Shown piece by piece: positions 1 through 17,046 of a DNA stretch of 17,046 bases (position 1 is the stretch's first letter; each line of letters begins with the position of its first letter). Made by a program: the position numbers and the translations under genes. The notes under the pieces were generated by a model. It was not told the origin of the DNA. It did not search any database and worked only from the letters and a program-made list of their open reading frames with translations. Source of the DNA: a virus; the IMG/VR virus record IMGVR_UViG_3300045988_127000, positions 1 to 17,046 of that record; one strand, given 5' to 3'.

Positions 1-415
1 GTTGCCCCCTTAGGGGTTCCCCAAGAGCTCGGCACCTGGAACACGCTCGCGATCTCGTCAACCGGTGCACGCTCGTCCACTCATGCGAGAAACCATTGCA
101 CCCTTACAGCCAACCTCACACCACCTATCACAAACCTCACATCGCCAAAATTCACAACCCTTGTAAAAAATTACCTCAACACGCCTAAAGAAATGGCATG
201 AGCCTATAACTACTCATACCATTTCTATAATATATTCAAGCGGTTCGACTTCTTCCGAAGTCCTTTCATCTATTCCTATCGCTTCGCGATCACCTGCGCC
301 TGTTATATATTTATAAGGTTCTGGCCCTACCAGGGTCGTTCAATCATTTGTGTCGCTATGCGATCTCATGGCCGATGGCTCATTCCATCGCTTGCGACCG
401 GCCCACCCTAAACCA
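1..415. repeat. Left inverted terminal repeat (ITR), 415 bp, non-coding
   Basis: Positions 1-415 are the exact reverse complement of 16632-17046, checked by eye across the whole block. Identity breaks after cctaaacca at 415. No ORF with an RBS is present. The segment is GC-rich relative to the rest of the window. Confidence 0.93.
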
Positions 416-426
416 AGAGTTCAAGC

Positions 427-1446
427 CTAGAAGAGGGCTAGATACCTATTAATAATATCCTTTGTGCTATGGTCGTTATAGTATACATTTCCTACCCTAT
501 AATTTCGAACGATCATAGATAGCACTCGATCATTTCGCCAGCCTTTCGAAAGAATCATATTTTCGCGCATATCTTTTCCAATCGAATACACAGCTGGATA
601 GTCCATGTTTACATTTCGATTGATGAAAATTTTTCCCTCTGTAAAATCGACATAACAACCAAAATAAATACCATCTGCGTATATTGTGCAAATATATTTA
701 GCATTTGGTGTCATACGCATGATAAAATCATTTGTATCATACGCAAATTCACCTGAATTATAATCACCATATCGTGTACCGCTTATCAGTTTTTGAAACG
801 ATGATTTTTCCTGCGATCCTTTATCATAATCATCACCACAATTTTGAATCAATATTTGTTCTTTCATCATGGACCCTTTAAAGGTATTAAATTCCTTTGC
901 CGGGTTCACACTGATATTAAAATAATTAAAATACGGGTTGGAAATACTTGTTTTATTGGCCAGTAAATACACATGGCCTTCACGCTGCCTGAAAATGGAA
1001 TCAATGGCATTTAAAAATAATTCTACTTCATTTGGTATGTATAAATTATATCCGCCTTTTTCCGGTAAAAACTCATCAAAAATAATGGTGTCCACGTTCA
1101 CGAAAGAGGAAGATTTTAATGTTTTATAGCGTGATAGTGGCATAGCATAGCCACAAATTTCATCATTGATATAAAATTTATTGTACTTCTTGCCACCTTT
1201 GACACTTAGTTCATCTTCTGGAAATTCATGTGCAATATCATTGAAAAATGTGTCTATAGTGCTCATGTCGGTCGTGTGTCTTTTAAAATAGAAAAACTGT
1301 TTTCCCGTCTTTTTGTAATGTTTGATACTGTCCACTTTAAAACCATACGTTTTACCAATTCCACGTCCGCCCACGATGAAATTGATAAATTTATTGTAGG
1401 ATTTCACTCTGGACGGAACGTAGAAATGAAAACGTTTTTCAGACAT
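427..1446 (-). CDS. DNA encapsidation (packaging) ATPase, phi29 gp16-like
   Basis: 339 aa. Walker A FIVGGRGIGKTYG and Walker B TIIFDEF. Strong colinear similarity to the phi29 gp16 N-terminal region that I recall (NFVIGARGIGKSY...FNDVAQEFPDHEL...STIVFDEFI...YIPNEV). The start overlaps the upstream stop (TAATG). Confidence 0.9.
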   Translation of the reverse strand: MSEKRFHFYVPSRVKSYNKFINFIVGGRGIGKTYGFKVDSIKHYKKTGKQFFYFKRHTTDMSTIDTFFNDIAHEFPEDELSVKGGKKYNKFYINDEICGYAMPLSRYKTLKSSSFVNVDTIIFDEFLPEKGGYNLYIPNEVELFLNAIDSIFRQREGHVYLLANKTSISNPYFNYFNISVNPAKEFNTFKGSMMKEQILIQNCGDDYDKGSQEKSSFQKLISGTRYGDYNSGEFAYDTNDFIMRMTPNAKYICTIYADGIYFGCYVDFTEGKIFINRNVNMDYPAVYSIGKDMRENMILSKGWRNDRVLSMIVRNYRVGNVYYNDHSTKDIINRYLALF

Positions 1447-2221: not shown

Positions 2222-2947
2222 TTAGTAAATGTTGTAAAATAAACCATAGTCCAGCATTTCATCATATAAATTGGTTTCCAGTGTTATGATCGCATCGCGT
2301 GAGCCTTGTAACACTTCGGCCAGAGTCTGCACACCAATGTTTCCCTCACGATGAAATTTATAGTCTTCATTCGCATCCGTTTCACTCTTGCTTCCAGGCT
2401 CACTAATTTGCTGGACGATACTGTCCACGTAGTTTGTTCCTTCAAGATCCAAACGGCCTTGCGGTGTCGAACTTGTCAAATTGGTTGCCTTGTCTTTTCC
2501 AGAGCTGGAAGAGCTTCCGGTATTCTGTCTTGTATATTCTTCATCATAGCTGGTATTAAAAGTAGGGTTTTCCTGATCCTGAAAAGGAATGGTTTTAAAC
2601 AAGCTGAAATAACGTGGCATGTTGATGATCATCCAGTGTTTTAATTCTCTATGCCAGTATGCATAGGTCTCTTGTCCGATTTCATCAAAGAAAAAATGAT
2701 TCAAGATACCGGTTTCCAGTTCTTTTTTTGATACATACCCTTTTTCATTGATCATATCCTCTGTATAGAATTGATAGTCAAAATCAAAAATTTTCGGCCT
2801 TGCCAATTCTAAGATCTCATCATCGCTCAATGTATACCCACTTTCAATGATTTCTTTATGACAGAGTGCATAGCATACCCCTTGTATTGTTTCTGTGTAT
2901 TTGGCGCCCGTCACAGGCACAAGGCACGGTTTAAATGGTTTATACAT
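2222..2947 (-). CDS. Putative lower collar / tail tube protein (gp11 position). The ATG start is set at 2947; the ORF track extends to a GTG at 2956.
   Basis: Immediately downstream of the connector gene in the conserved phi29 order 9-10-11. RBS [12 protein letters not shown] with an ATG 5 nt after it. No sequence-level match recalled, so the call rests on synteny and size. Confidence 0.5.
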   Translation of the reverse strand: MYKPFKPCLVPVTGAKYTETIQGVCYALCHKEIIESGYTLSDDEILELARPKIFDFDYQFYTEDMINEKGYVSKKELETGILNHFFFDEIGQETYAYWHRELKHWMIINMPRYFSLFKTIPFQDQENPTFNTSYDEEYTRQNTGSSSSSGKDKATNLTSSTPQGRLDLEGTNYVDSIVQQISEPGSKSETDANEDYKFHREGNIGVQTLAEVLQGSRDAIITLETNLYDEMLDYGLFYNIY

Positions 2948-3827
2948 TTTCATCACCTTCTTCCAGGCTTGCCATTTCTTCCAAACTCATGTCGTTTACT
3001 TCCATCATGTCCAGCATGTCATTATACGCTCGAAAACTTACTTTTACGTTGGTTCCAAATTTCTGATTGAATGCATCGACCGCTTTTTGACGTTCTGCAA
3101 GCCAAATGTTTCTCGATGCAATGATCTGTGTGTTGTTGGCATAGACTTCAGCACTCTGCACACGTTCTCTCTTGTCCTGGTTGGCATTGTCAATGCCTAA
3201 AAATGTCATGCATTCTCTTAGAATGGTTTGTTTGACATCGTTCACATCCATGGCCACAAATGGCGCCTGTGTCGGCAGCACTTGTAGCATGCTCATAATA
3301 TCTAAATTTTTAGCAGTGAATATCGCACGTACACCACTTCGCACCTTTTTTATAAAATTATTAAATTGGTTCAACATGCGTTTATCCCCTTGAATGATGT
3401 ACGGTGTCCATTGTGCATCCAGATTGACGTTGATTGTCTCGGATGCAAGCGCCAGCTGTTTGGCATAGTATTGCAATTGAGGTAGTAATGGCGCATATAA
3501 AGGGGAATTTTTAAACAATATTACATCTTCGGCGTTATAGGTTCCGGTCAATTCACCCGTTGGATCCACACCACGATAGGCGGTCGGCATGTAATAATGA
3601 TTCAGCTTACCACCGATCGTACATTCTAAAGCGGTCGGGCCAAAACGTTCATCATCAATGATGATGCATAGTCCTCTTGTCTGCATGATAAATTCCAAAT
3701 AAAACGTGTCTACGCTTTTTGGCATGTCTGTATATTCAAACATGTTCAATGCTATATTGAAAAGATAGCTCAAATATAGATGCTCAAGGCTTGTCTTTTC
3801 ATCGGAAATAAAATCTGTTGGTAACAT
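2940..3827 (-). CDS. Head-tail connector (upper collar / portal) protein, phi29 gp10-like
   Basis: 295 aa. The segment ...QTILRECMTFLGIDNANQDKRERVQSAEV... closely matches phi29 gp10 ...[25 protein letters not shown].... Overall length and position match. Confidence 0.88.
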   Translation of the reverse strand: MLPTDFISDEKTSLEHLYLSYLFNIALNMFEYTDMPKSVDTFYLEFIMQTRGLCIIIDDERFGPTALECTIGGKLNHYYMPTAYRGVDPTGELTGTYNAEDVILFKNSPLYAPLLPQLQYYAKQLALASETINVNLDAQWTPYIIQGDKRMLNQFNNFIKKVRSGVRAIFTAKNLDIMSMLQVLPTQAPFVAMDVNDVKQTILRECMTFLGIDNANQDKRERVQSAEVYANNTQIIASRNIWLAERQKAVDAFNQKFGTNVKVSFRAYNDMLDMMEVNDMSLEEMASLEEGDENV

Positions 3828-10029: not shown

Positions 10030-11379
10030 TTACGCTACAACGACAACTTGAATCACACTCTGAACACTTGTTTCAACCGTGTCTTTGACAGTCACTGTTT
10101 TCAAGCCAGCTGTTGCACTTCCGTTAGCTGCGATCGTGATTTCTGTTTTGTCATCATTGATTGTTGCTGTCACATTTGGATCACTGGATGTTGCTGTTAC
10201 ATTAACCGATGCATCAATTCCAGATTTCTGGATGCTCATTTTTACCTTTTTGGTTTCATTTGCTTTTAATGTAATGGCATCCGGATTGACTGTGATCCCT
10301 GTAATTTTGTTTTCAGCGCTACCGCTTACAAAAGCGATCGCATTCGCGAAACGACTTGTAGCAATACCTTCCCAGTGATGTAACCAGTAATTCCAATACA
10401 AGCCTTCCCCGTTATACTGTGTATTTACATTGTATTTCTGATCGAATACGCGGTAGATCTCACGATCTACTAACATCGCTTCCACTTTTCCGTTGTCGGT
10501 TTCTGGAAGTGTTGGAATTACCAATACATGTGTTTTAAAGTTGGCAACGTCCAACTGGAATGTCTGTGACAACCATTCAATATTTAAGAAGCTGTTGGAT
10601 TCGGCTGTTAAAATGATATATAGATCATCCAATTCATTCTGTTTGGTCACGCCCATCCCGTTGTATTCATTATGCGGTTCTGTCAAAATGGATGCATACA
10701 TTGTCAATTGTCTTGCTAGATCCTTAGCACTTGCTGTGTCCGTGACAGCGTTTGCTAAGTTGATGATCTTCATATACCCATTTTCATAATGCGTTGTCAG
10801 TGCGGACTTCATATATTTGTAGTCGTCTCGATTGTCACCATTGTACAAGCTGTCCACGATCTTAGCAATCAAACTATTGACACCATCCCAAGTCACAAAA
10901 TAGCTGCGCAAATCATCGTCTGTCACAGTGCTCTTATAAAAGCTTTTTCGATTGACAGTGTAAAACACTGTCTTGATGTCTGGTAATTCGCGTTTAAATA
11001 CATTGGTTTCCGATGCCGCCTGATCATAAGCATGCTCTTTCGCTGCTTCCACAAAGTATTCTTCCATCGTGTAGCCTAAAGGCATGTTCTGCATCTTAAA
11101 TGGCGCTAGTCTGTTTGAAAGAATATTTTTGTGTGCAATGGTACGCCCGATGCGTGTTGCTAAAGTTACCCATTCAGTTGCAAGTTGTTCTGGGTATTCA
11201 AGTAAACCATTCATAAAATCCAAGGAATTGGTTTCTAAAGGATCCCCTACGCTTGCACGGAAATTTTCCGATGCCGCCATGTACATAGAATGTGCTACCT
11301 GCTGGCCAGTTGGTTCAGCTTCCAATCCTAAATTGGTCTGAATTGCCTTAGCCACGTCTTTTGCTGTTGTTTTAGCCAT
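10030..11379 (-). CDS. Major capsid protein, phi29 gp8-like, with C-terminal Big_2 (Ig-like) domain
   Basis: 449 aa. ...GLYWNYWLHHWEGIATSRFANAIAFVSGSAENKITGITVNPDAITL... matches phi29 gp8 ...[45 protein letters not shown].... Earlier blocks (NVFKRELPDIKTVF / VFEREMPNVKTLF) also match. RBS GGAGATGAAGAAAA. Confidence 0.95.
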   Translation of the reverse strand: MAKTTAKDVAKAIQTNLGLEAEPTGQQVAHSMYMAASENFRASVGDPLETNSLDFMNGLLEYPEQLATEWVTLATRIGRTIAHKNILSNRLAPFKMQNMPLGYTMEEYFVEAAKEHAYDQAASETNVFKRELPDIKTVFYTVNRKSFYKSTVTDDDLRSYFVTWDGVNSLIAKIVDSLYNGDNRDDYKYMKSALTTHYENGYMKIINLANAVTDTASAKDLARQLTMYASILTEPHNEYNGMGVTKQNELDDLYIILTAESNSFLNIEWLSQTFQLDVANFKTHVLVIPTLPETDNGKVEAMLVDREIYRVFDQKYNVNTQYNGEGLYWNYWLHHWEGIATSRFANAIAFVSGSAENKITGITVNPDAITLKANETKKVKMSIQKSGIDASVNVTATSSDPNVTATINDDKTEITIAANGSATAGLKTVTVKDTVETSVQSVIQVVVVA

Positions 11380-12126: not shown

Positions 12127-13941
12127 TTATCGTCTCTTGATCTTGAATTGTGCATCGTATAAAACCACACCGCCAGGCACATGGCTTTTTTTCAAACAGC
12201 CCGGCACGCTCGTTCCAACCTTGAACGTCTCAAATGTTATGTTCTGCTTGGCGCTTTCTGTCATGCCGGCGCATTTTACATTCAACCGGTATGCGATTCC
12301 CTCACGCAAATACACAAGATTGTCCTTCTTGTCATGGTCTTCGATAAAGGCACGCTGGCGTTCGTTATATTCATTGTAAGAAATTTCAATTTCTTCAATA
12401 TATGTTTTTGCACCTACAAAATAGGCACGTTTGAATACACTTTCCAGCCCCCAAAAACCAAGTTCTTTATCATCTATAACATCCTTTATTGCATCTGGTA
12501 CATCCGTTCCTACCAGATGGATGGAATCAGTGTCAATATACGCCACGCGGTCGATTCCTACTTTCTGGGCGGTTAAGATCGTATACTTTCGCGCATAGGC
12601 TGTTACAAATGTTGCGTAAGGCAAATAGATAGGGTCACGCATTTCTGTGTCAATTTCTTCCGTGATTTCGTCTGTTTCCGGATTCCACACCTTGATTTTT
12701 GGCTCGGCCATTCGCAGCACACCTTCTTCATCCAGATAAGGTATTTTTGGTGTCACATCCGGGTTTGTTGCAAACTTCCCATACACAGAGTTCATTTTTC
12801 TTTTCGCGATGAAACGTTTGGCACCTTTTTCCTTTTTCTTGACTTCCATGCATTCCTCAATAAAAGGTCGGGCAACGCCCACATTGCCACGAAAATAATA
12901 TCCGCCATTAAAAGAAACATCATACACATCGTATTGATGTTGTATGAGTTCCCAGTCCACACTGGTCAATGTCATGCTGACAACTTCTCCATTCGAGCTA
13001 TCAATATATTCTTTGGATCCGTTATAAATGGTCACCTTGTCCAGTGATATACAAGGTATATGATCCGGTTTGATATCAAACGCAAAATTGACGTTGGCAA
13101 CCCATAAAGGACGCGTTTTCAATATCTCTGGGTTTGGCTCCCCTTCAAAGATCGTAGGCAATCCATAAGGCAACAACTCCAGATACATACGTGAAGGATA
13201 TAAACTATTAACATCAAATACCATGCCATTTTGAATCAGCTTTTCATTGTGTCTTGGATTTGCCCATACAAAACCACCACTATAACTCTGGCGTATATCT
13301 GCATCGCTTTCTAGGCTCAATCCTGGATATAGTTTATTGAACGAATCGCCAAGGCTTTCTTTAAATGCCTTATAACTGGCACCTGTCGCTGTCATTTTGT
13401 TAAAGCCTTCATCAAACAACTGTTCCAGTGCCATTGCTACGATGTCAATGTCATTAAATAGGTATTCTTTTTCCTCTCTGGTTAAAAGGTGTCCGGGTTC
13501 TCGATTGGCATCATAGTCTAGGTGTAGCTTTCGAATCGGTAAATGGAAGTCATGCGCGATCTGTCGAACGCTAAAAGGAATCAACTTCAAACTATCCCAA
13601 ATGGTCGTCTTGATCGTATGCTTTTTTCGTACTTTCCAGTAGATTTCAATCGCATACCACTGCCCAAGATTGGAAATGATCGTGTGAAAACAGCCCTCTT
13701 TTGGGTGTTTGGAATACTTCCACCCGTTTTTAAGCAAATGGCTGATAATAAATTCCCCGTCAAAAGCCAGATTGTGAAAATAGCATTTTATATTTTTCCC
13801 TTGGATCCATTCTATAAACGTCTCAATGGAATTTCCAAAAAGTTTATGATCTGTCTTTCCTACTTCGCTGGCACCCCATGCCCACACTCTACAATCGTTT
13901 GGGTCTGTCGTGGTTTCAAAATCACAAGAATAAACTTGCAC
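12127..13941 (-). CDS. Protein-primed family-B DNA polymerase (phi29 gp2-like); initiates at GTG overlapping the upstream TAG
   Basis: 604 aa. Exo I VYSCDFETTTDPNDCRVWAWG (phi29 MYSCDFETTTKVEDCRVWAYG). Motif A DVNSLYPSRMY. Motif B KMNSVYGKFATNPDVTPKIPYL. Motif C RVAYIDTDSIHL. The start codon at 13941-13939 is GTG. Confidence 0.97.
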   Translation of the reverse strand: MQVYSCDFETTTDPNDCRVWAWGASEVGKTDHKLFGNSIETFIEWIQGKNIKCYFHNLAFDGEFIISHLLKNGWKYSKHPKEGCFHTIISNLGQWYAIEIYWKVRKKHTIKTTIWDSLKLIPFSVRQIAHDFHLPIRKLHLDYDANREPGHLLTREEKEYLFNDIDIVAMALEQLFDEGFNKMTATGASYKAFKESLGDSFNKLYPGLSLESDADIRQSYSGGFVWANPRHNEKLIQNGMVFDVNSLYPSRMYLELLPYGLPTIFEGEPNPEILKTRPLWVANVNFAFDIKPDHIPCISLDKVTIYNGSKEYIDSSNGEVVSMTLTSVDWELIQHQYDVYDVSFNGGYYFRGNVGVARPFIEECMEVKKKEKGAKRFIAKRKMNSVYGKFATNPDVTPKIPYLDEEGVLRMAEPKIKVWNPETDEITEEIDTEMRDPIYLPYATFVTAYARKYTILTAQKVGIDRVAYIDTDSIHLVGTDVPDAIKDVIDDKELGFWGLESVFKRAYFVGAKTYIEEIEISYNEYNERQRAFIEDHDKKDNLVYLREGIAYRLNVKCAGMTESAKQNITFETFKVGTSVPGCLKKSHVPGGVVLYDAQFKIKRR

Positions 13942-14773: not shown

Positions 14774-15124
14774 TTAAAATGGCAAGTCATCGTCTTGCAA
14801 GGATAATGTATCTTCTTTTGGTTCTTCTTTCTTGTCAAAGATCAATTCAACACGTTCTGCATTGATCTCGTGATTCACATATACTTTTCCTTTGCTCTCC
14901 GAATTACGAATGTCATAATGCCCTTCAATAATGGCACGCATGCCTTTCTGTCCGTATTTTTCGACATATTCAGCTTGTTTGTCCCATAAAATAATGGTTG
15001 GAAAAATAGCTTTTTCTTTGTCTTTTGACACAGCCAAAGCAAAGCGCATCACGCTTTTTCCTGATTTTGTTTTCATCAATTCGATTTCATTTGCAATTCG
15101 TCCGCTTAAAATAACTTTATTCAT
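14774..15124 (-). CDS. Single-stranded DNA-binding protein, bacterial SSB-type OB fold with conserved acidic C-terminal tail
   Basis: 116 aa. MNKVILSGRIANEIELMKTKSGKSVMRFALAV...ILWDKQAEYVEKYGQKGMRAIIEGHYDIRN parallels E. coli/B. subtilis SSB (MNRVILVGRL...TFTLAV...[32 protein letters not shown]). The C-terminus ...LQDDDLPF matches the SSB interaction tail DDDIPF. Confidence 0.82.
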   Translation of the reverse strand: MNKVILSGRIANEIELMKTKSGKSVMRFALAVSKDKEKAIFPTIILWDKQAEYVEKYGQKGMRAIIEGHYDIRNSESKGKVYVNHEINAERVELIFDKKEEPKEDTLSLQDDDLPF

Positions 15125-15192
15125 CTTGTTTCCTCTTCTTTCTATTTAAAAATACTCGGTACACTTATTTCCGCGTCTACATCAAATTCCCA

Positions 15193-15336
15193 TCAACTTG
15201 GAATAAAACCATCAGCACATACAGCACATTTAGACGCTTCATATTTAGAATGCAATCTACAATCTTCACATTTAGCTGTTTCCTGACAATGTCTTTTAAT
15301 CACTTCTAATGCTGATAAAACATCTGTAAAATCCAT
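15193..15336 (-). CDS. Small Cys-rich (zinc-ribbon-like) protein, 47 aa, not in the ORF track
   Basis: Strong RBS GGAAGGTGGTTATAAC precedes the ATG at 15336-15334. Sequence MDFTDVLSALEVIKRHCQETAKCEDCRLHSKYEASKCAVCADGFIPS has a CX5CX2C ... CX2C spacing. It exactly fills the gap between the membrane-protein gene and the SSB gene, with a TAACATG junction. Confidence 0.5.
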   Translation of the reverse strand: MDFTDVLSALEVIKRHCQETAKCEDCRLHSKYEASKCAVCADGFIPS

Positions 15337-15337
15337 G

Positions 15338-16294: not shown

Positions 16295-16528
16295 TTATTC
16301 ACCACTTTCATGTAATTCAACAAAAGCATAAATAAAATTTTCAACATACATTAAAAATTTAAACATTTCATGTCTATCACTTTCAACAAGTAAGCAATAA
16401 CGTTCATTTCCTTTCACAAGATCTAAAATGCATCCATTTAACTCAATGTAATATCCCTTTTCCATTTCCGCTAATTTTAAATTCACTTGATTGATCATTT
16501 GGTTTAAAATACTAGTAGTTGTTTCCAT
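16295..16528 (-). CDS. First early gene: small acidic protein (77 aa)
   Basis: RBS AAAGAGGAGGACACATC precedes the ATG. Net acidic (E/D-rich). First ORF downstream of the right-end promoter region. Confidence 0.5.
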   Translation of the reverse strand: METTTSILNQMINQVNLKLAEMEKGYYIELNGCILDLVKGNERYCLLVESDRHEMFKFLMYVENFIYAFVELHESGE

Positions 16529-16550
16529 GATGTGTCCTCCTCTTTACACC

Positions 16551-16595
16551 ATTATATTACCACAATATATTGCATAATGAAACACCTATTTACAA
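16551..16595 (-). promoter_or_regulatory. Candidate early promoter(s) between the right ITR and the first early gene
   Basis: Minus strand reads TTGTAA-17nt-TGcAATATA, then a second perfect TATAAT (16556-16551) about 20 nt upstream of the RBS of the first early ORF. Confidence 0.4.
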
Positions 16596-16631
16596 TTTTT
16601 TGTACCTCACCTTATTCTAACCTTGGGCTTA

Positions 16632-17046
16632 TGGTTTAGGGTGGGCCGGTCGCAAGCGATGGAATGAGCCATCGGCCATGAGATCGCATAGCGACACAAA
16701 TGATTGAACGACCCTGGTAGGGCCAGAACCTTATAAATATATAACAGGCGCAGGTGATCGCGAAGCGATAGGAATAGATGAAAGGACTTCGGAAGAAGTC
16801 GAACCGCTTGAATATATTATAGAAATGGTATGAGTAGTTATAGGCTCATGCCATTTCTTTAGGCGTGTTGAGGTAATTTTTTACAAGGGTTGTGAATTTT
16901 GGCGATGTGAGGTTTGTGATAGGTGGTGTGAGGTTGGCTGTAAGGGTGCAATGGTTTCTCGCATGAGTGGACGAGCGTGCACCGGTTGACGAGATCGCGA
17001 GCGTGTTCCAGGTGCCGAGCTCTTGGGGAACCCCTAAGGGGGCAAC
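16632..17046. repeat. Right inverted terminal repeat (ITR), 415 bp
   Basis: Reverse complement of positions 1-415. Together with the protein-primed polymerase and candidate terminal protein, this marks the window as a complete linear genome. Confidence 0.93.

What the first reader, a model, noticed from the sequence alone, without database searches (positions are those of the whole stretch)
1..415. ITR is GC-rich, non-coding, and carries phased short repeats, a -10 box and stable hairpins: candidate origin, promoter and structured RNA
The terminal ~100 nt are visibly GC-rich (about 60% by hand count on the first 60 nt) against an AT-rich genome. Internal direct repeats include CACGCTCG (42-49 and 68-75), AACCTCACA (112-120 and 133-141, 21 bp apart, i.e. 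two helical turns) and GCGATCTC (49-56 and 360-367). An AT-rich block (161-235) holds TTGTAA and a perfect TATAAT (226-231) pointing inward. Downstream lies a perfect hairpin GACTTC-ttcc-GAAGTC (247-262). Nested stems follow at 352-398 (gtcgc...CGATGG-ctcatt-CCATCG...gcgac). Because the ITR is inverted, the same promoter-plus-structure unit reads inward at both ends. At the right end it would feed the early operon. At the left end it would transcribe antisense to the ATPase gene. Phased repeats near a protein-primed origin are the kind of signal bound by histone-like origin proteins (p6 in phi29). The extreme terminus GTTGCC... has no obvious short homopolymer like the AAA of phi29 or GGGG of PRD1 that the sliding-back mechanism uses, so the true 5' end may differ by a few nt or jump-back may use the GTTG repeat.
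Basis: partly seen in the sequence, partly recalled or inferred. Interest (0 to 1): 0.65.

Follow-up and report, generated by a model that had tools for sequence, protein, structure and literature searches.

The report
Terminal repeat of gut phi29-like phage
The 416-base repeat at both ends of this small gut phage genome is real and holds conserved hairpins, but they look like the terminator and structured tail of the late (packaging ATPase) transcript reading outward, not an inward promoter or a phi29-type packaging RNA, and most of the "phased repeats" are recent local insertions missing from close relatives.

Summary
The window is a complete 17,046-bp phi29-like podophage genome from the human gut. 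All its genes lie on the minus strand. An exact 416-bp ITR is present.

Three close relatives (about 90% nt identity) show a mosaic:
- The terminal 22-24 nt are conserved.
- The GC-rich block 25-111, which holds two of the three repeat pairs, is absent from all three.
- The AACCTCACA pair is shared with only one relative.
- The nested stems at 352-398 come from an insert found only in this genome.

Repeated 8-mers are not above chance (p about 0.08). TATAAT has no -35 and no TG, and occurs 25 times in the genome.

What is conserved:
- An invariant 22-mer (152-173).
- A hairpin at 193-222.
- Two small hairpins (H1, H2) with compensatory changes.

The 193-222 hairpin has G·U pairs and a U-tract only on the outward (ATPase-sense) strand. 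It is the first terminator after the ATPase gene.

In one relative the ITR runs 31 nt into the ATPase ORF, so the inner ITR is shared with the ATPase-proximal end.

Rfam's pRNA model does not match here, while the phi29 control scores 145 bits. The connector lacks phi29's basic RNA-binding N-terminus.

Verdict: an ordinary but dynamic ITR. A non-canonical packaging RNA is not excluded.

The parts
1..416 (.). Left inverted terminal repeat. The right copy is 16631-17046; position p maps to 17047-p.
   Evidence: Exact reverse-complement identity. Most relatives' contigs break at or within about 50 nt of this boundary, as expected of a repeat.
1..24 (.). Conserved terminal block GTTGCCCCCTTAGGGGTTCCCCAA, containing a CCCC-tta-GGGG mini-hairpin. 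Inferred core origin for protein-primed replication.
   Evidence: Positions 3-24 are 100% identical at the end of contig 145733 (L001). There is one substitution in L042 and a partial copy in L029. The origin function is inferred from position and from the PolB gene.
25..111 (.). GC-rich block (61% GC) found only in this genome. It contains an imperfect tandem duplication (25-49 and 51-75) and, at 96-106, a near-copy of the terminal sequence (TTGCACCCTTA against TTGCCCCCTTA).
   Evidence: Absent from L001, L029 and L042. Internal repeats D1 and D5. No source found in the loci, phages or plasmids.
112..141 (.). AACCTCACA-12 nt-AACCTCACA block.
   Evidence: Present in diverged form in L042 (CACCTCTCACCACCTATCAACAACCTCACA). 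Absent from L001 and L029.
152..173 (.). Invariant 22-mer CACAACCCTTGTAAAAAATTAC. It is the best-conserved internal ITR sequence. Function unknown; candidate protein-binding site.
   Evidence: Identical in all four ITRs, although the genomes are only about 89-91% identical overall. Found only in the ITRs. Its distance from the terminus varies from about 30 to 150 nt.
185..222 (-). Hairpin T (stem 213-222 / 193-202, loop 203-212) followed on the minus strand by the U-tract AUUUCUUU (about 192-185). Inferred intrinsic terminator of the late/ATPase transcript.
   Evidence: On the outward strand dG is -9 to -15 kcal/mol with 5-7 U in the next 9 nt, comparable to the genome's other terminators. On the inward strand dG is -4 to -7 with A·C mismatches. 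One compensatory AU-to-GC change and one AU-to-GU change in L042. No other terminator-like site lies between the ATPase stop and T.
226..231 (+).
   Evidence: No -35 and no TG. It lies in the AT-rich spacer between T and H1. Conserved in L001 and L029; reads TATTAT in L042. There are 25 TATAAT in the window against 18 expected.
225..299 (-). Module A. It comprises an AT-rich spacer, H1-A (247-262, GACTTC/GAAGTC), a 15-nt linker (263-277, purine-rich on the minus strand), H2-A (278-290, ATCGC-ttc-GCGAT), and the 5' arm of a possible closing helix P1 (291-296 with 239-244).
   Evidence: Module A alone is present in L029 and L042. The H1-A loop is GNRA on the outward strand (GGAA here, GUAA in both relatives). 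P1 pairs only on the outward strand.
300..398 (-). Module B, a diverged tandem paralogue of module A. H1-B is at 317-337 (core CTGG/CCAG). H2-B is at 352-364, or GTCGC 352-356 with GCGAC 394-398, enclosing an insert found only in this genome (about 357-393) that carries CGATGG-ctcatt-CCATCG.
   Evidence: Direct repeat 225-246 / 300-321. L001 has module B only and lacks the insert. The insert is 82% complementary to the T arm 188-204 (I2). The H1-B extension pairs through G·U only on the inward strand.
407..425 (-). Hairpin P0 immediately after the ATPase stop codon (427-429). It spans the ITR boundary.
   Evidence: It is 8-9 bp with G·U pairs, on the outward strand only. The diverged copy at the right end keeps the pairing through A-U to G-U changes. 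Weak evidence: it is not kept in L042.
427..1446 (-). gp16-type DNA packaging ATPase, the last gene of the genome-long minus-strand gene array. Its transcript runs into the ITR.
   Evidence: Pfam PF05894, E = 3e-65. In contig 102084 the ITR includes the last 31 nt of this ORF.
16551..16582 (-). Probable early promoter region outside the ITR (inferred): -35 TTTCAT (TTGCAT in relatives), TGgTAATAT / TATAAT, followed by the RBS and the first early ORF (ATG at 16528).
   Evidence: Read. Conserved in L029, L030 and L031. The consensus scan does not call it on the minus strand, but it does call outward-facing sites at 16543-16571 and 16589-16618 on the plus strand.

Best explanation
The ITR is a composite.

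(a) The first 22-24 nt are the conserved end used for protein-primed replication. This is inferred.

(b) Positions 25-141 are an indel-prone spacer. In this genome it has grown through local duplications and an insertion. This is where the GC-richness and the 'phased repeats' come from.

(c) A conserved core follows, made of three elements:
- an invariant 22-mer of unknown role, perhaps a protein-binding site;
- an intrinsic terminator T at 193-222 that works in the outward direction;
- one or two copies of a small structured module (hairpins H1 and H2 with a purine-rich linker) between the ATPase stop codon and T.

Proposed mechanism. At the left end, the late transcript that ends with the packaging ATPase reads on into the ITR. 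It folds P0, H2 and H1 and stops at T, about 190 nt from the terminus. The hairpins therefore belong to a structured 3' untranslated tail. Such a tail would stabilise the 3' end of the late mRNA, or could be released as a small stable RNA.

The same sequence sits at the right end because the two ends of a protein-primed linear genome are kept identical. There it may be a passenger.

What is shown:
- the anatomy of the ITR;
- conservation of the core blocks;
- compensatory pairs in the stems;
- the strand asymmetry of the pairing;
- extension of the ITR into the ATPase ORF in one relative.

What is inferred:
- transcription into the ITR;
- termination at T;
- the stabilising role of the hairpins;
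- the origin function of the terminal block.
For: - Genome type. It is a phi29-like podophage with every gene on the minus strand and the ATPase last.
- T hairpin energetics. On the outward strand dG is -9 to -15 kcal/mol with a U-tract, similar to the genome's other terminators. On the inward strand it is much weaker.
- T hairpin pairing. G·U pairs on the outward strand become A·C mismatches on the inward strand in all four genomes. There is one compensatory change.
- No other terminator-like site follows the ATPase stop.
- Whole-region folding. Outward RNA 185-430 has MFE -80.4 and z -4.5. Inward RNA has MFE -64.6 and z -3.8. Outward is lower by 10-19 kcal/mol in L001, L029 and L042 as well.
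- H2 occurs as three haplotypes (ATCGC/GCGAT, GTCAC/GTGAC, GTCGC/GCGAC). Each is perfectly paired, and the motif is found only in the ITRs.
- The H1-A loop is GNRA on the outward strand in three genomes (GGAA, GUAA, GUAA).
- The ITR of contig 102084 includes 31 nt of the ATPase ORF, and the window keeps a decayed copy of that stretch at its right end. The inner ITR is therefore shared with ATPase-proximal sequence.
- The flagged repeats and nested stems lie in blocks absent from relatives and look like local duplications.
- phi29 also has a bidirectional Rho-independent terminator just after gene 16 (annotation).
Against: - There are no transcript data. Termination at T and read-through from the ATPase gene are both inferred.
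- T lies about 205 nt beyond the stop codon, whereas the 57%-identity relatives terminate within about 40 nt. The intervening RNA may therefore have a function of its own.
- Only four ITRs could be compared, all about 90% identical, so covariation has little statistical power.
- Both strands give negative z-scores.
- The H1-B stem extension, and the U-rich tracts after H1, favour the inward strand.
- H1-A and H2 are strand-symmetric. They would fit DNA hairpins or palindromic protein sites equally well.
- The P0 and P1 helices were found by eye on the outward strand, which biases the strand count.
- Retention of P0 pairing in the diverged right-end copy hints that outward RNA, or a single-stranded DNA structure, may also matter at that end.
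Confidence: 0.5

Rival explanations
1. An inward-facing promoter (TATAAT at 226-231) drives a structured RNA (236-415) at both ends. It feeds the early operon on the right and runs antisense to the ATPase gene on the left.
For: - TATAAT is exact and is kept in L001 and L029.
- H1-B forms a 10-bp stem with G·U pairs only on the inward strand.
- Streptococcus phage Cp-1 has annotated promoters in and across its 236-bp ITR, including an inward one with a mapped start site.
Against: - There is no -35 and no TG, and the scan calls no promoter in 1-426.
- TATAAT is common in this genome, and L042 has TATTAT at that position.
- On the inward strand each H1 is followed by a U-rich tract. The scan terminator-like, so a transcript would tend to stop after about 40 nt.
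- Inward folding is weaker than outward in all four genomes.
- The early operon has its own conserved promoter region outside the ITR.
Confidence: 0.1
2. The outward RNA (about 140-240 nt, ending at T) is this lineage's packaging RNA. It would be a non-canonical counterpart of phi29 pRNA, encoded in both ITRs.
For: - Its position and orientation match the phi29 pRNA gene. That gene spans 147-320 and is transcribed toward the left end from promoter A1.
- The phage has a gp16-type ATPase and a phi29-type connector.
- The ITR is the only sizeable non-coding, structured region in the genome. The 15125-15337 gap holds a 47-aa ORF and is unstructured.
- Module A can close into a small three-way junction (P1, H2, H1) on the outward strand.
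- Promoter-like sites face outward just inside the right ITR.
Against: - There is no RF00044 hit even with lax filters, while phi29 scores 145 bits.
- H1 and H2 carry 3-4-nt loops, so there are no complementary loops for the ring-forming kissing interaction.
- There is no long 5'/3' A-helix.
- Module number (1 or 2) and type (A or B) differ between phages whose ATPases are 98% identical.
- The connector N-terminus is acidic (MLPTDFISDEKTSLEH) and lacks phi29's basic MARKRSNTYR...QRQKRNR segment.
- The 57%-identity relatives have no such region after the ATPase gene.
Confidence: 0.08
3. The conserved elements act as DNA, not RNA. The 22-mer and the palindromic H1/H2 sites would bind phage or host proteins that organise the replication origin, like the auxiliary region of the adenovirus ITR or p6 nucleation sites. 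Alternatively they form hairpins in displaced single strands during strand-displacement replication.
For: - H1-A and H2 are perfect palindromes, so they are strand-symmetric.
- The 22-mer is invariant, is ITR-specific, and is not part of any strong helix.
- Both ends carry the elements, as a replication function would require.
- G·T pairs are also tolerated in single-stranded DNA.
Against: - Spacing between the terminus and these elements varies from about 30 to about 150 nt among close relatives.
- Two H2 haplotypes coexist in one genome, which is awkward for a single sequence-specific protein.
- The T hairpin plus U-tract has the anatomy of a terminator.
- The ITR boundary wanders into the ATPase ORF, so not everything inside the ITR needs a two-ended function.
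Confidence: 0.17
4. Apart from the terminal 24 nt or so, the ITR content is incidental. It would be sequence that happened to be duplicated to both ends and is drifting, with hairpins created by local inverted and tandem duplications.
For: - Large indels occur among relatives at about 90% identity.
- Several local duplications are visible.
- Aligned ITR blocks are 85-91% identical, no better than the genome average of about 89%.
Against: - There are compensatory double substitutions in H2 and one in T.
- The 22-mer is invariant.
- GNRA is preserved across a loop substitution.
- Structure z-scores for the T region are among the lowest in the genome.
Confidence: 0.15

Closest known systems
Left end of Bacillus phage phi29 (origin, then pRNA gene 147-320 transcribed outward from promoter A1)
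   Same: - The order from the terminus is the same: origin, a spacer of about 140-190 nt, the 3' end of an outward-reading structured RNA, the body of that RNA, and then an upstream transcription source.
- The packaging ATPase and connector families are the same.
   Different: - The phi29 ITR is 6 bp, so its pRNA gene is single-copy and outside the repeat.
- Here there is no Rfam pRNA match, no kissing loops and no long A-helix.
- The connector lacks the basic N-terminus.
- Here the RNA is the continuation of the ATPase transcript, and no consensus promoter of its own is seen.
ITRs of Streptococcus phage Cp-1 (236 bp; NC_001825 annotation)
   Same: - It is a long ITR in a phi29-like phage whose early and late genes mostly share one strand.
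- The ITR carries transcription signals in both orientations, including an outward-facing promoter.
- A purine-rich outward stretch, AUAGAAACAGAUGAAAGGAUUUU, resembles window AUAGGAAUAGAUGAAAGGACUUC at 19 of 23 positions. The significance is borderline.
   Different: - Cp-1 has a consensus TTGACA-16-TATAAT promoter inside the ITR. The window has none.
- In Cp-1 the ATPase is not the terminal gene.
- The proteins are only distantly related.
Bidirectional Rho-independent terminator after gene 16 of phi29 (annotated at 17262-17301)
   Same: - It is a hairpin with A- and U-tracts placed after the packaging ATPase gene at the end of the late operon.
- T at 193-222 has the same anatomy and the same relative position.
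   Different: - In phi29 it lies about 20 nt after the stop codon, between convergent operons.
- Here it lies about 205 nt downstream, inside the ITR, so it is duplicated at the other end. It is much stronger in one direction.
Adenovirus-type ITR (core origin plus auxiliary protein-binding region)
   Same: A conserved extreme terminus is followed by a conserved internal block (the 22-mer). This comparison rests on general knowledge, not on a test here.
   Different: - Spacing to the terminus is not fixed.
- No binding protein is known.
- There is no relationship of descent.

Membership tests
Phage pRNA (Rfam RF00044) | Match to the covariance model at or above the gathering score (100 bits) | tested here: not met
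   No hit at E<=10 in the whole window or in a lax 520-nt scan. The phi29 positive control scores 145.4 bits. Cp-1 also gives no hit.
Phage pRNA (Rfam RF00044) | Two loops (CE and D) with mutual complementarity for ring formation | tested here: not met
   H2 has a 3-nt loop and H1-A a GNRA tetraloop. No complementary loop pair was found by inspection of the four sequences.
Phage pRNA (Rfam RF00044) | Three-way junction closed by a long A-helix formed by the 5' and 3' ends | tested here: inconclusive
   A 6-7-bp helix P1 can close H2 and H1 in module A on the outward strand. It is short, absent or different in module B, and RNAalifold prefers another partner for the same bases.
Phage pRNA (Rfam RF00044) | Gene close to a genome end and transcribed toward that end | tested here: inconclusive
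   Location is met: the structured region lies at 190-426 from the terminus. The strand evidence favours outward. Transcription itself is untested.
Phage pRNA (Rfam RF00044) | Partner proteins: gp16-type ATPase, and a connector with a basic N-terminal RNA-binding segment | tested here: not met
   The ATPase (PF05894) and connector (PF05352) are present. The connector N-terminus is acidic, and the alignment with phi29 gp10 starts only at residue 18 against 27. That the basic segment binds pRNA is taken from my knowledge of the phi29 literature.
Protein-primed linear genome ITR/origin (phi29, Cp-1 type) | Identical inverted repeats at both ends of a genome encoding a family-B protein-priming polymerase | tested here: met
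   Exact 416-bp ITR. PF03175 DNA_pol_B_2, E = 2e-64. The 265-aa ORF upstream of the polymerase gene is in the position of a terminal protein but has no Pfam hit.
Protein-primed linear genome ITR/origin (phi29, Cp-1 type) | Reiterated terminal bases allowing sliding-back (three identical bases in all phi29-like phages examined, PMC6266182) | tested here: not met
   The window starts GTTGCC. L001 stops 2 nt short, and the L042 end is rearranged. The true ends may be missing a few bases, so this does not exclude membership.
Intrinsic (Rho-independent) terminator | Stable stem-loop followed by a U-tract, downstream of an operon, on the transcribed strand | tested here: met
   T at 193-222 on the minus strand: dG -12 to -15 kcal/mol, tail AUUUCUUU. 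It is conserved with compensatory changes in relatives. Actual termination is not testable here.
   TATAAT at 226-231 is present. The bases at -35 read CCTATA and there is no TG. The scan reports nothing in 1-426.
phi29 p6-type phased binding array | Conserved, helically phased binding signals near the terminus | tested here: not met
   The repeats are not above chance and lie in blocks absent from close relatives. No p6 homologue was looked for.
CsrB/RsmZ-type GGA sponge RNA (RF00166) | Match at the gathering score (44 bits); several GGA motifs in loops | tested here: not met
   15.9 bits, E = 0.22 in the small scan. GGA motifs occur in module A linkers but not consistently in module B.

The most novel reading that the evidence does not exclude
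The outward-reading structured RNA inside the ITR (P0, H2, H1 and T; 140-240 nt) is a stable non-coding RNA made from both genome ends or from the tail of the late transcript. It would serve the gp16/connector packaging motor of this uncultured gut lineage, as a packaging RNA with an architecture unlike phi29 pRNA. A 2024 review still describes pRNA as unique to phi29 and related Bacillus phages (PMC11476376).
Probability: 0.08. Interest if true: 0.75.

Novelty: new member of a known kind. Interest (0 to 1): 0.3.

Why it matters
- Long ITRs of phi29-like phages are rarely assembled. Nearly every related metagenomic contig stops at the repeat. This window therefore gives one of the few complete looks at such an end in the abundant gut lineages.
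- The comparison shows how these ends evolve. A fixed tip of about 24 nt and a small conserved core are kept. Around them there are insertions, tandem and inverted duplications, and a boundary that moves into the neighbouring gene.
- The comparison also narrows the search for a packaging RNA in non-Bacillus phi29-like phages. If this phage has one, the inner ITR is the only place left for it. That is directly testable by strand-specific RNA-seq.
- Otherwise the finding is ordinary: a terminator and a structured 3' tail that have been copied to both ends.

Tried and rejected
- DNA searches. Megablast and blastn of the genome, the ITR and block 20-145 against the phage and plasmid collections gave no match.
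- Pattern scans of IMG/VR with the 22-mer, the terminal block and module A returned only the two contigs already known.
- The metagenome scan and the GTDB scan with the ATPase found many relatives. Almost all contigs break at the ITR, and no host was identified.
- Six look-ups of ATPase homologues in assemblies gave tails of only 7-50 nt, or different gene layouts.
- A whole-genome z-score scan at 150-nt windows timed out. It was repeated with smaller settings.
- The 15125-15337 gap was rejected as an alternative RNA gene. It holds a 47-aa ORF and has z +0.7.
- A small ORF in the outward linker (MKGLRKKSNRLNIL) was rejected. Its frame and start are not kept in L042, L001 or module B.
- The weak RsmZ hit was rejected as membership.
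- MAFFT alignment of modules A and B put H1 and P1 out of register. Pair counts were therefore made by hand-curated script, which carries observer bias.
- No covariance model was built, because four near-identical sequences would add nothing beyond BLAST.
- The Cp-1 genome paper (Martin et al. 1996) is not held in the library. Where Cp-1's proposed pRNA lies therefore rests on the GenBank annotation and on a citation in PMC6266182 only.

Full report
**What the window is.** The 17,046 bases are a complete linear phi29-like podophage genome.
- Pfam finds a gp16 packaging ATPase (427-1446), a CHAP lysin, a phi29-type connector (2940-3827), a tail knob, a phi29-type major capsid protein (10030-11379) and a protein-priming family-B polymerase (12127-13941). 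All are on the minus strand.
- The right end is therefore the early end, and the ATPase is the last gene.
- Related contigs come from human gut metagenomes.
- The nearest cultured phages share only about 35% identity in the ATPase or capsid protein.

**Checking the observation.** The ITR is exact over 416 bp, and every motif is at the stated coordinate.
- The first 100 nt are 61% GC, against 38% for the rest of the genome.
- The short direct repeats are not statistically remarkable. There are five repeated 8-mers against 1.8 expected (8% of shuffles), and a longest repeat of 9 nt (30% of shuffles).
- TATAAT occurs 25 times in the genome against 18 expected.
- TATAAT lies 59 bp from the TTGTAA and has no -35 or TG. 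The promoter scan calls nothing in 1-426.

**Relatives.** Nearly all related contigs stop at or within about 50 nt of the ITR boundary. Only three other ITRs could be read:
- IMG/VR contig 145733 (L001);
- IMG/VR contig 112758 (L029);
- ENA contig OQCP01001363 (L042). Its last 59 nt are inverted by an assembly fold-back, which I repaired.

All three are about 90% identical to the window in the ATPase gene.

**What the alignments show**.
- The terminal 22-24 nt are conserved.
- The GC-rich block 25-111 is unique to the window.
- Block 112-141, with the AACCTCACA pair, is shared only with L042.
- A core from 142 to about 236 is shared by all, including an invariant 22-mer, CACAACCCTTGTAAAAAATTAC.
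- The window carries two tandem paralogous modules, A (225-299) and B (300-398). L029 and L042 carry only A, and L001 only B.
- The nested stems at 352-398 come from an insert present only in the window.

The window-specific material looks like local duplication:
- 25-49 and 51-75 form an imperfect tandem repeat.
- 96-106 nearly repeats the terminal sequence.
- The insert is complementary to an arm of the 193-222 hairpin.

So the GC-richness, two of the three repeat pairs and the nested stems are recent features of one lineage.

**What is conserved and structured.**
- Hairpin T (193-222) dominates the structure signal of the ITR.
  - On the outward (minus) strand it has a 9-10-bp stem with a G·U pair. 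Its dG is -9 to -15 kcal/mol, and a U-tract follows. This is comparable to the genome's other terminators.
  - On the inward strand the same positions are A·C mismatches, and dG is -4 to -7.
  - L042 shows one compensatory AU-to-GC change and one AU-to-GU change.
  - No other terminator-like site follows the ATPase stop codon.
- H2 occurs as three perfectly paired haplotypes and only in the ITRs.
- The H1-A loop is GGAA or GUAA, which is GNRA on the outward strand.
- Outward RNA from the stop codon to T folds 10-19 kcal/mol better than inward RNA in all four genomes. The z-scores are -4.5, -2.8, -3.7 and -1.8 outward, against -3.8, -2.1, -2.5 and -1.6 inward.
- Against this, the H1-B extension pairs only on the inward strand, and each H1 is followed there by a U-rich tract.

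The strand assignment is therefore favoured, not proven.

**The ITR boundary.**
- In contig 102084 the two ends share an exact run that includes the last 31 nt of the ATPase ORF.
- In the window the same stretch survives at the right end as a decayed copy.
- The inner ITR is therefore sequence shared with the ATPase-proximal end, and not everything in it needs a function at both ends.
- The early operon has its own conserved promoter region and RBS at 16551-16582(-), outside the ITR.

**pRNA.**
- Rfam's pRNA model gives nothing in the window, even in a lax 520-nt scan. It scores 145 bits on phi29 at 201-318, on the outward strand.
- The hairpins have 3-4-nt loops, so there is no kissing-loop pair.
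- Module number and type differ between phages whose ATPases are 98% identical.
- The connector N-terminus is acidic and lacks the basic segment of phi29 gp10.
- In favour, the layout mirrors the phi29 left end.
- Also in favour, the ITR is the only non-coding structured region in the genome.
- A 2024 review states that pRNA is, as far as is known, unique to phi29 and related Bacillus phages (PMC11476376). A covariance model also failed on the proposed Cp-1 pRNA (PMC6266182).
- I put a non-canonical packaging RNA at about 8%.

**Closest precedent.**
- The Cp-1 ITR (236 bp) is annotated with promoters in both directions. The specific promoter proposed here lacks the required elements.
- phi29 itself places a bidirectional terminator directly after gene 16.

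**Conclusion.** The ITR is best read as three parts:
- a conserved replication end;
- an unstable spacer;
- the terminator and structured 3' tail of the late transcript, duplicated to the other end.

Confidence is about 0.5.

Noticed in passing
window 1321-1440 (minus strand), inside the 5' part of the ATPase ORF: A long imperfect hairpin of about 30 bp (MFE -36.4, z -4.7 to -7.1). It is the most structured 120-nt window in the genome and covers the Walker A coding region just after the lysin/ATPase gene overlap. It may have a translational or mRNA-stability role.
   Followed up: partly
L042 2687-2758 (ENA OQCP01001363, coverage 1.8x): The contig end carries the terminal 47 nt or so in inverted orientation between 12-nt inverted repeats (TGCAAGTGTGAG ... 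CTCACACTTGCA). This is a fold-back assembly artefact at a genome terminus. It had to be repaired before alignment.
   Followed up: yes
L099 2518-2563 and L100 2384-2433 (ATPase 63% identical): Directly after the ATPase stop, and in the same orientation, comes a sequence resembling the window's early promoter and leader: TGCTATACTAATTATGTAAAGAGTAGGTA against TGGTAATATAATGGTGTAAAGAGGAGGACA. Either another gene follows in that phage or the contig joins the two ends.
   Followed up: no
window 262-284 (minus strand) and Cp-1 (L115) 127-149 (minus strand): The purine-rich linker AUAGGAAUAGAUGAAAGGACUUC matches AUAGAAACAGAUGAAAGGAUUUU at 19 of 23 positions. The Cp-1 sequence lies at the start of the outward transcript predicted from the Cp-1 ITR promoter. 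My rough chance estimate is about 0.05 before allowing for purine bias.
   Followed up: partly
window 187-299 (minus strand): A weak Rfam hit to PrrB/RsmZ (15.9 bits, E = 0.22 in a 520-nt scan). It is driven by GGA motifs (AUAGGAAU, AAAGGACU, UCGGAAG) in module A plus the terminator. It is far below the gathering score.
   Followed up: partly
window 96-141 compared with the L042 terminus: Window 96-141 aligns with the L042 end (terminal block plus the CCTCACA block). This suggests a former terminus now buried about 95 nt inside, meaning the end has been extended and rebuilt in this lineage.
   Followed up: partly
window 16543-16571 and 16589-16618 (plus strand): Two promoter-like sites (TTTACA-17-TATATT, 10 of 12; TTTACA-18-TATTCT) face outward into the right ITR, back to back with the early promoter region. 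The first is conserved in L029 and L031, but it overlaps the early leader on the other strand.
   Followed up: partly
L096 3036-3080 and L097 3039-3085 (ATPase 57-58% identical): In these relatives a strong hairpin terminator follows the ATPase stop at once. Small genes on the opposite strand then fill the end, as at the phi29 right end. The L097 contig ends in two perfect palindromes (ACCCACGTGGGT and GTTTCACGTGAAAC).
   Followed up: no
window 14774-15124 and 15193-15336 (minus strand): A 116-aa ORF has an SSB-like N-terminus. Upstream of it in the early region lies a 47-aa cysteine-rich ORF (CQETAKCEDC...CAVC). Neither was analysed further.
   Followed up: no
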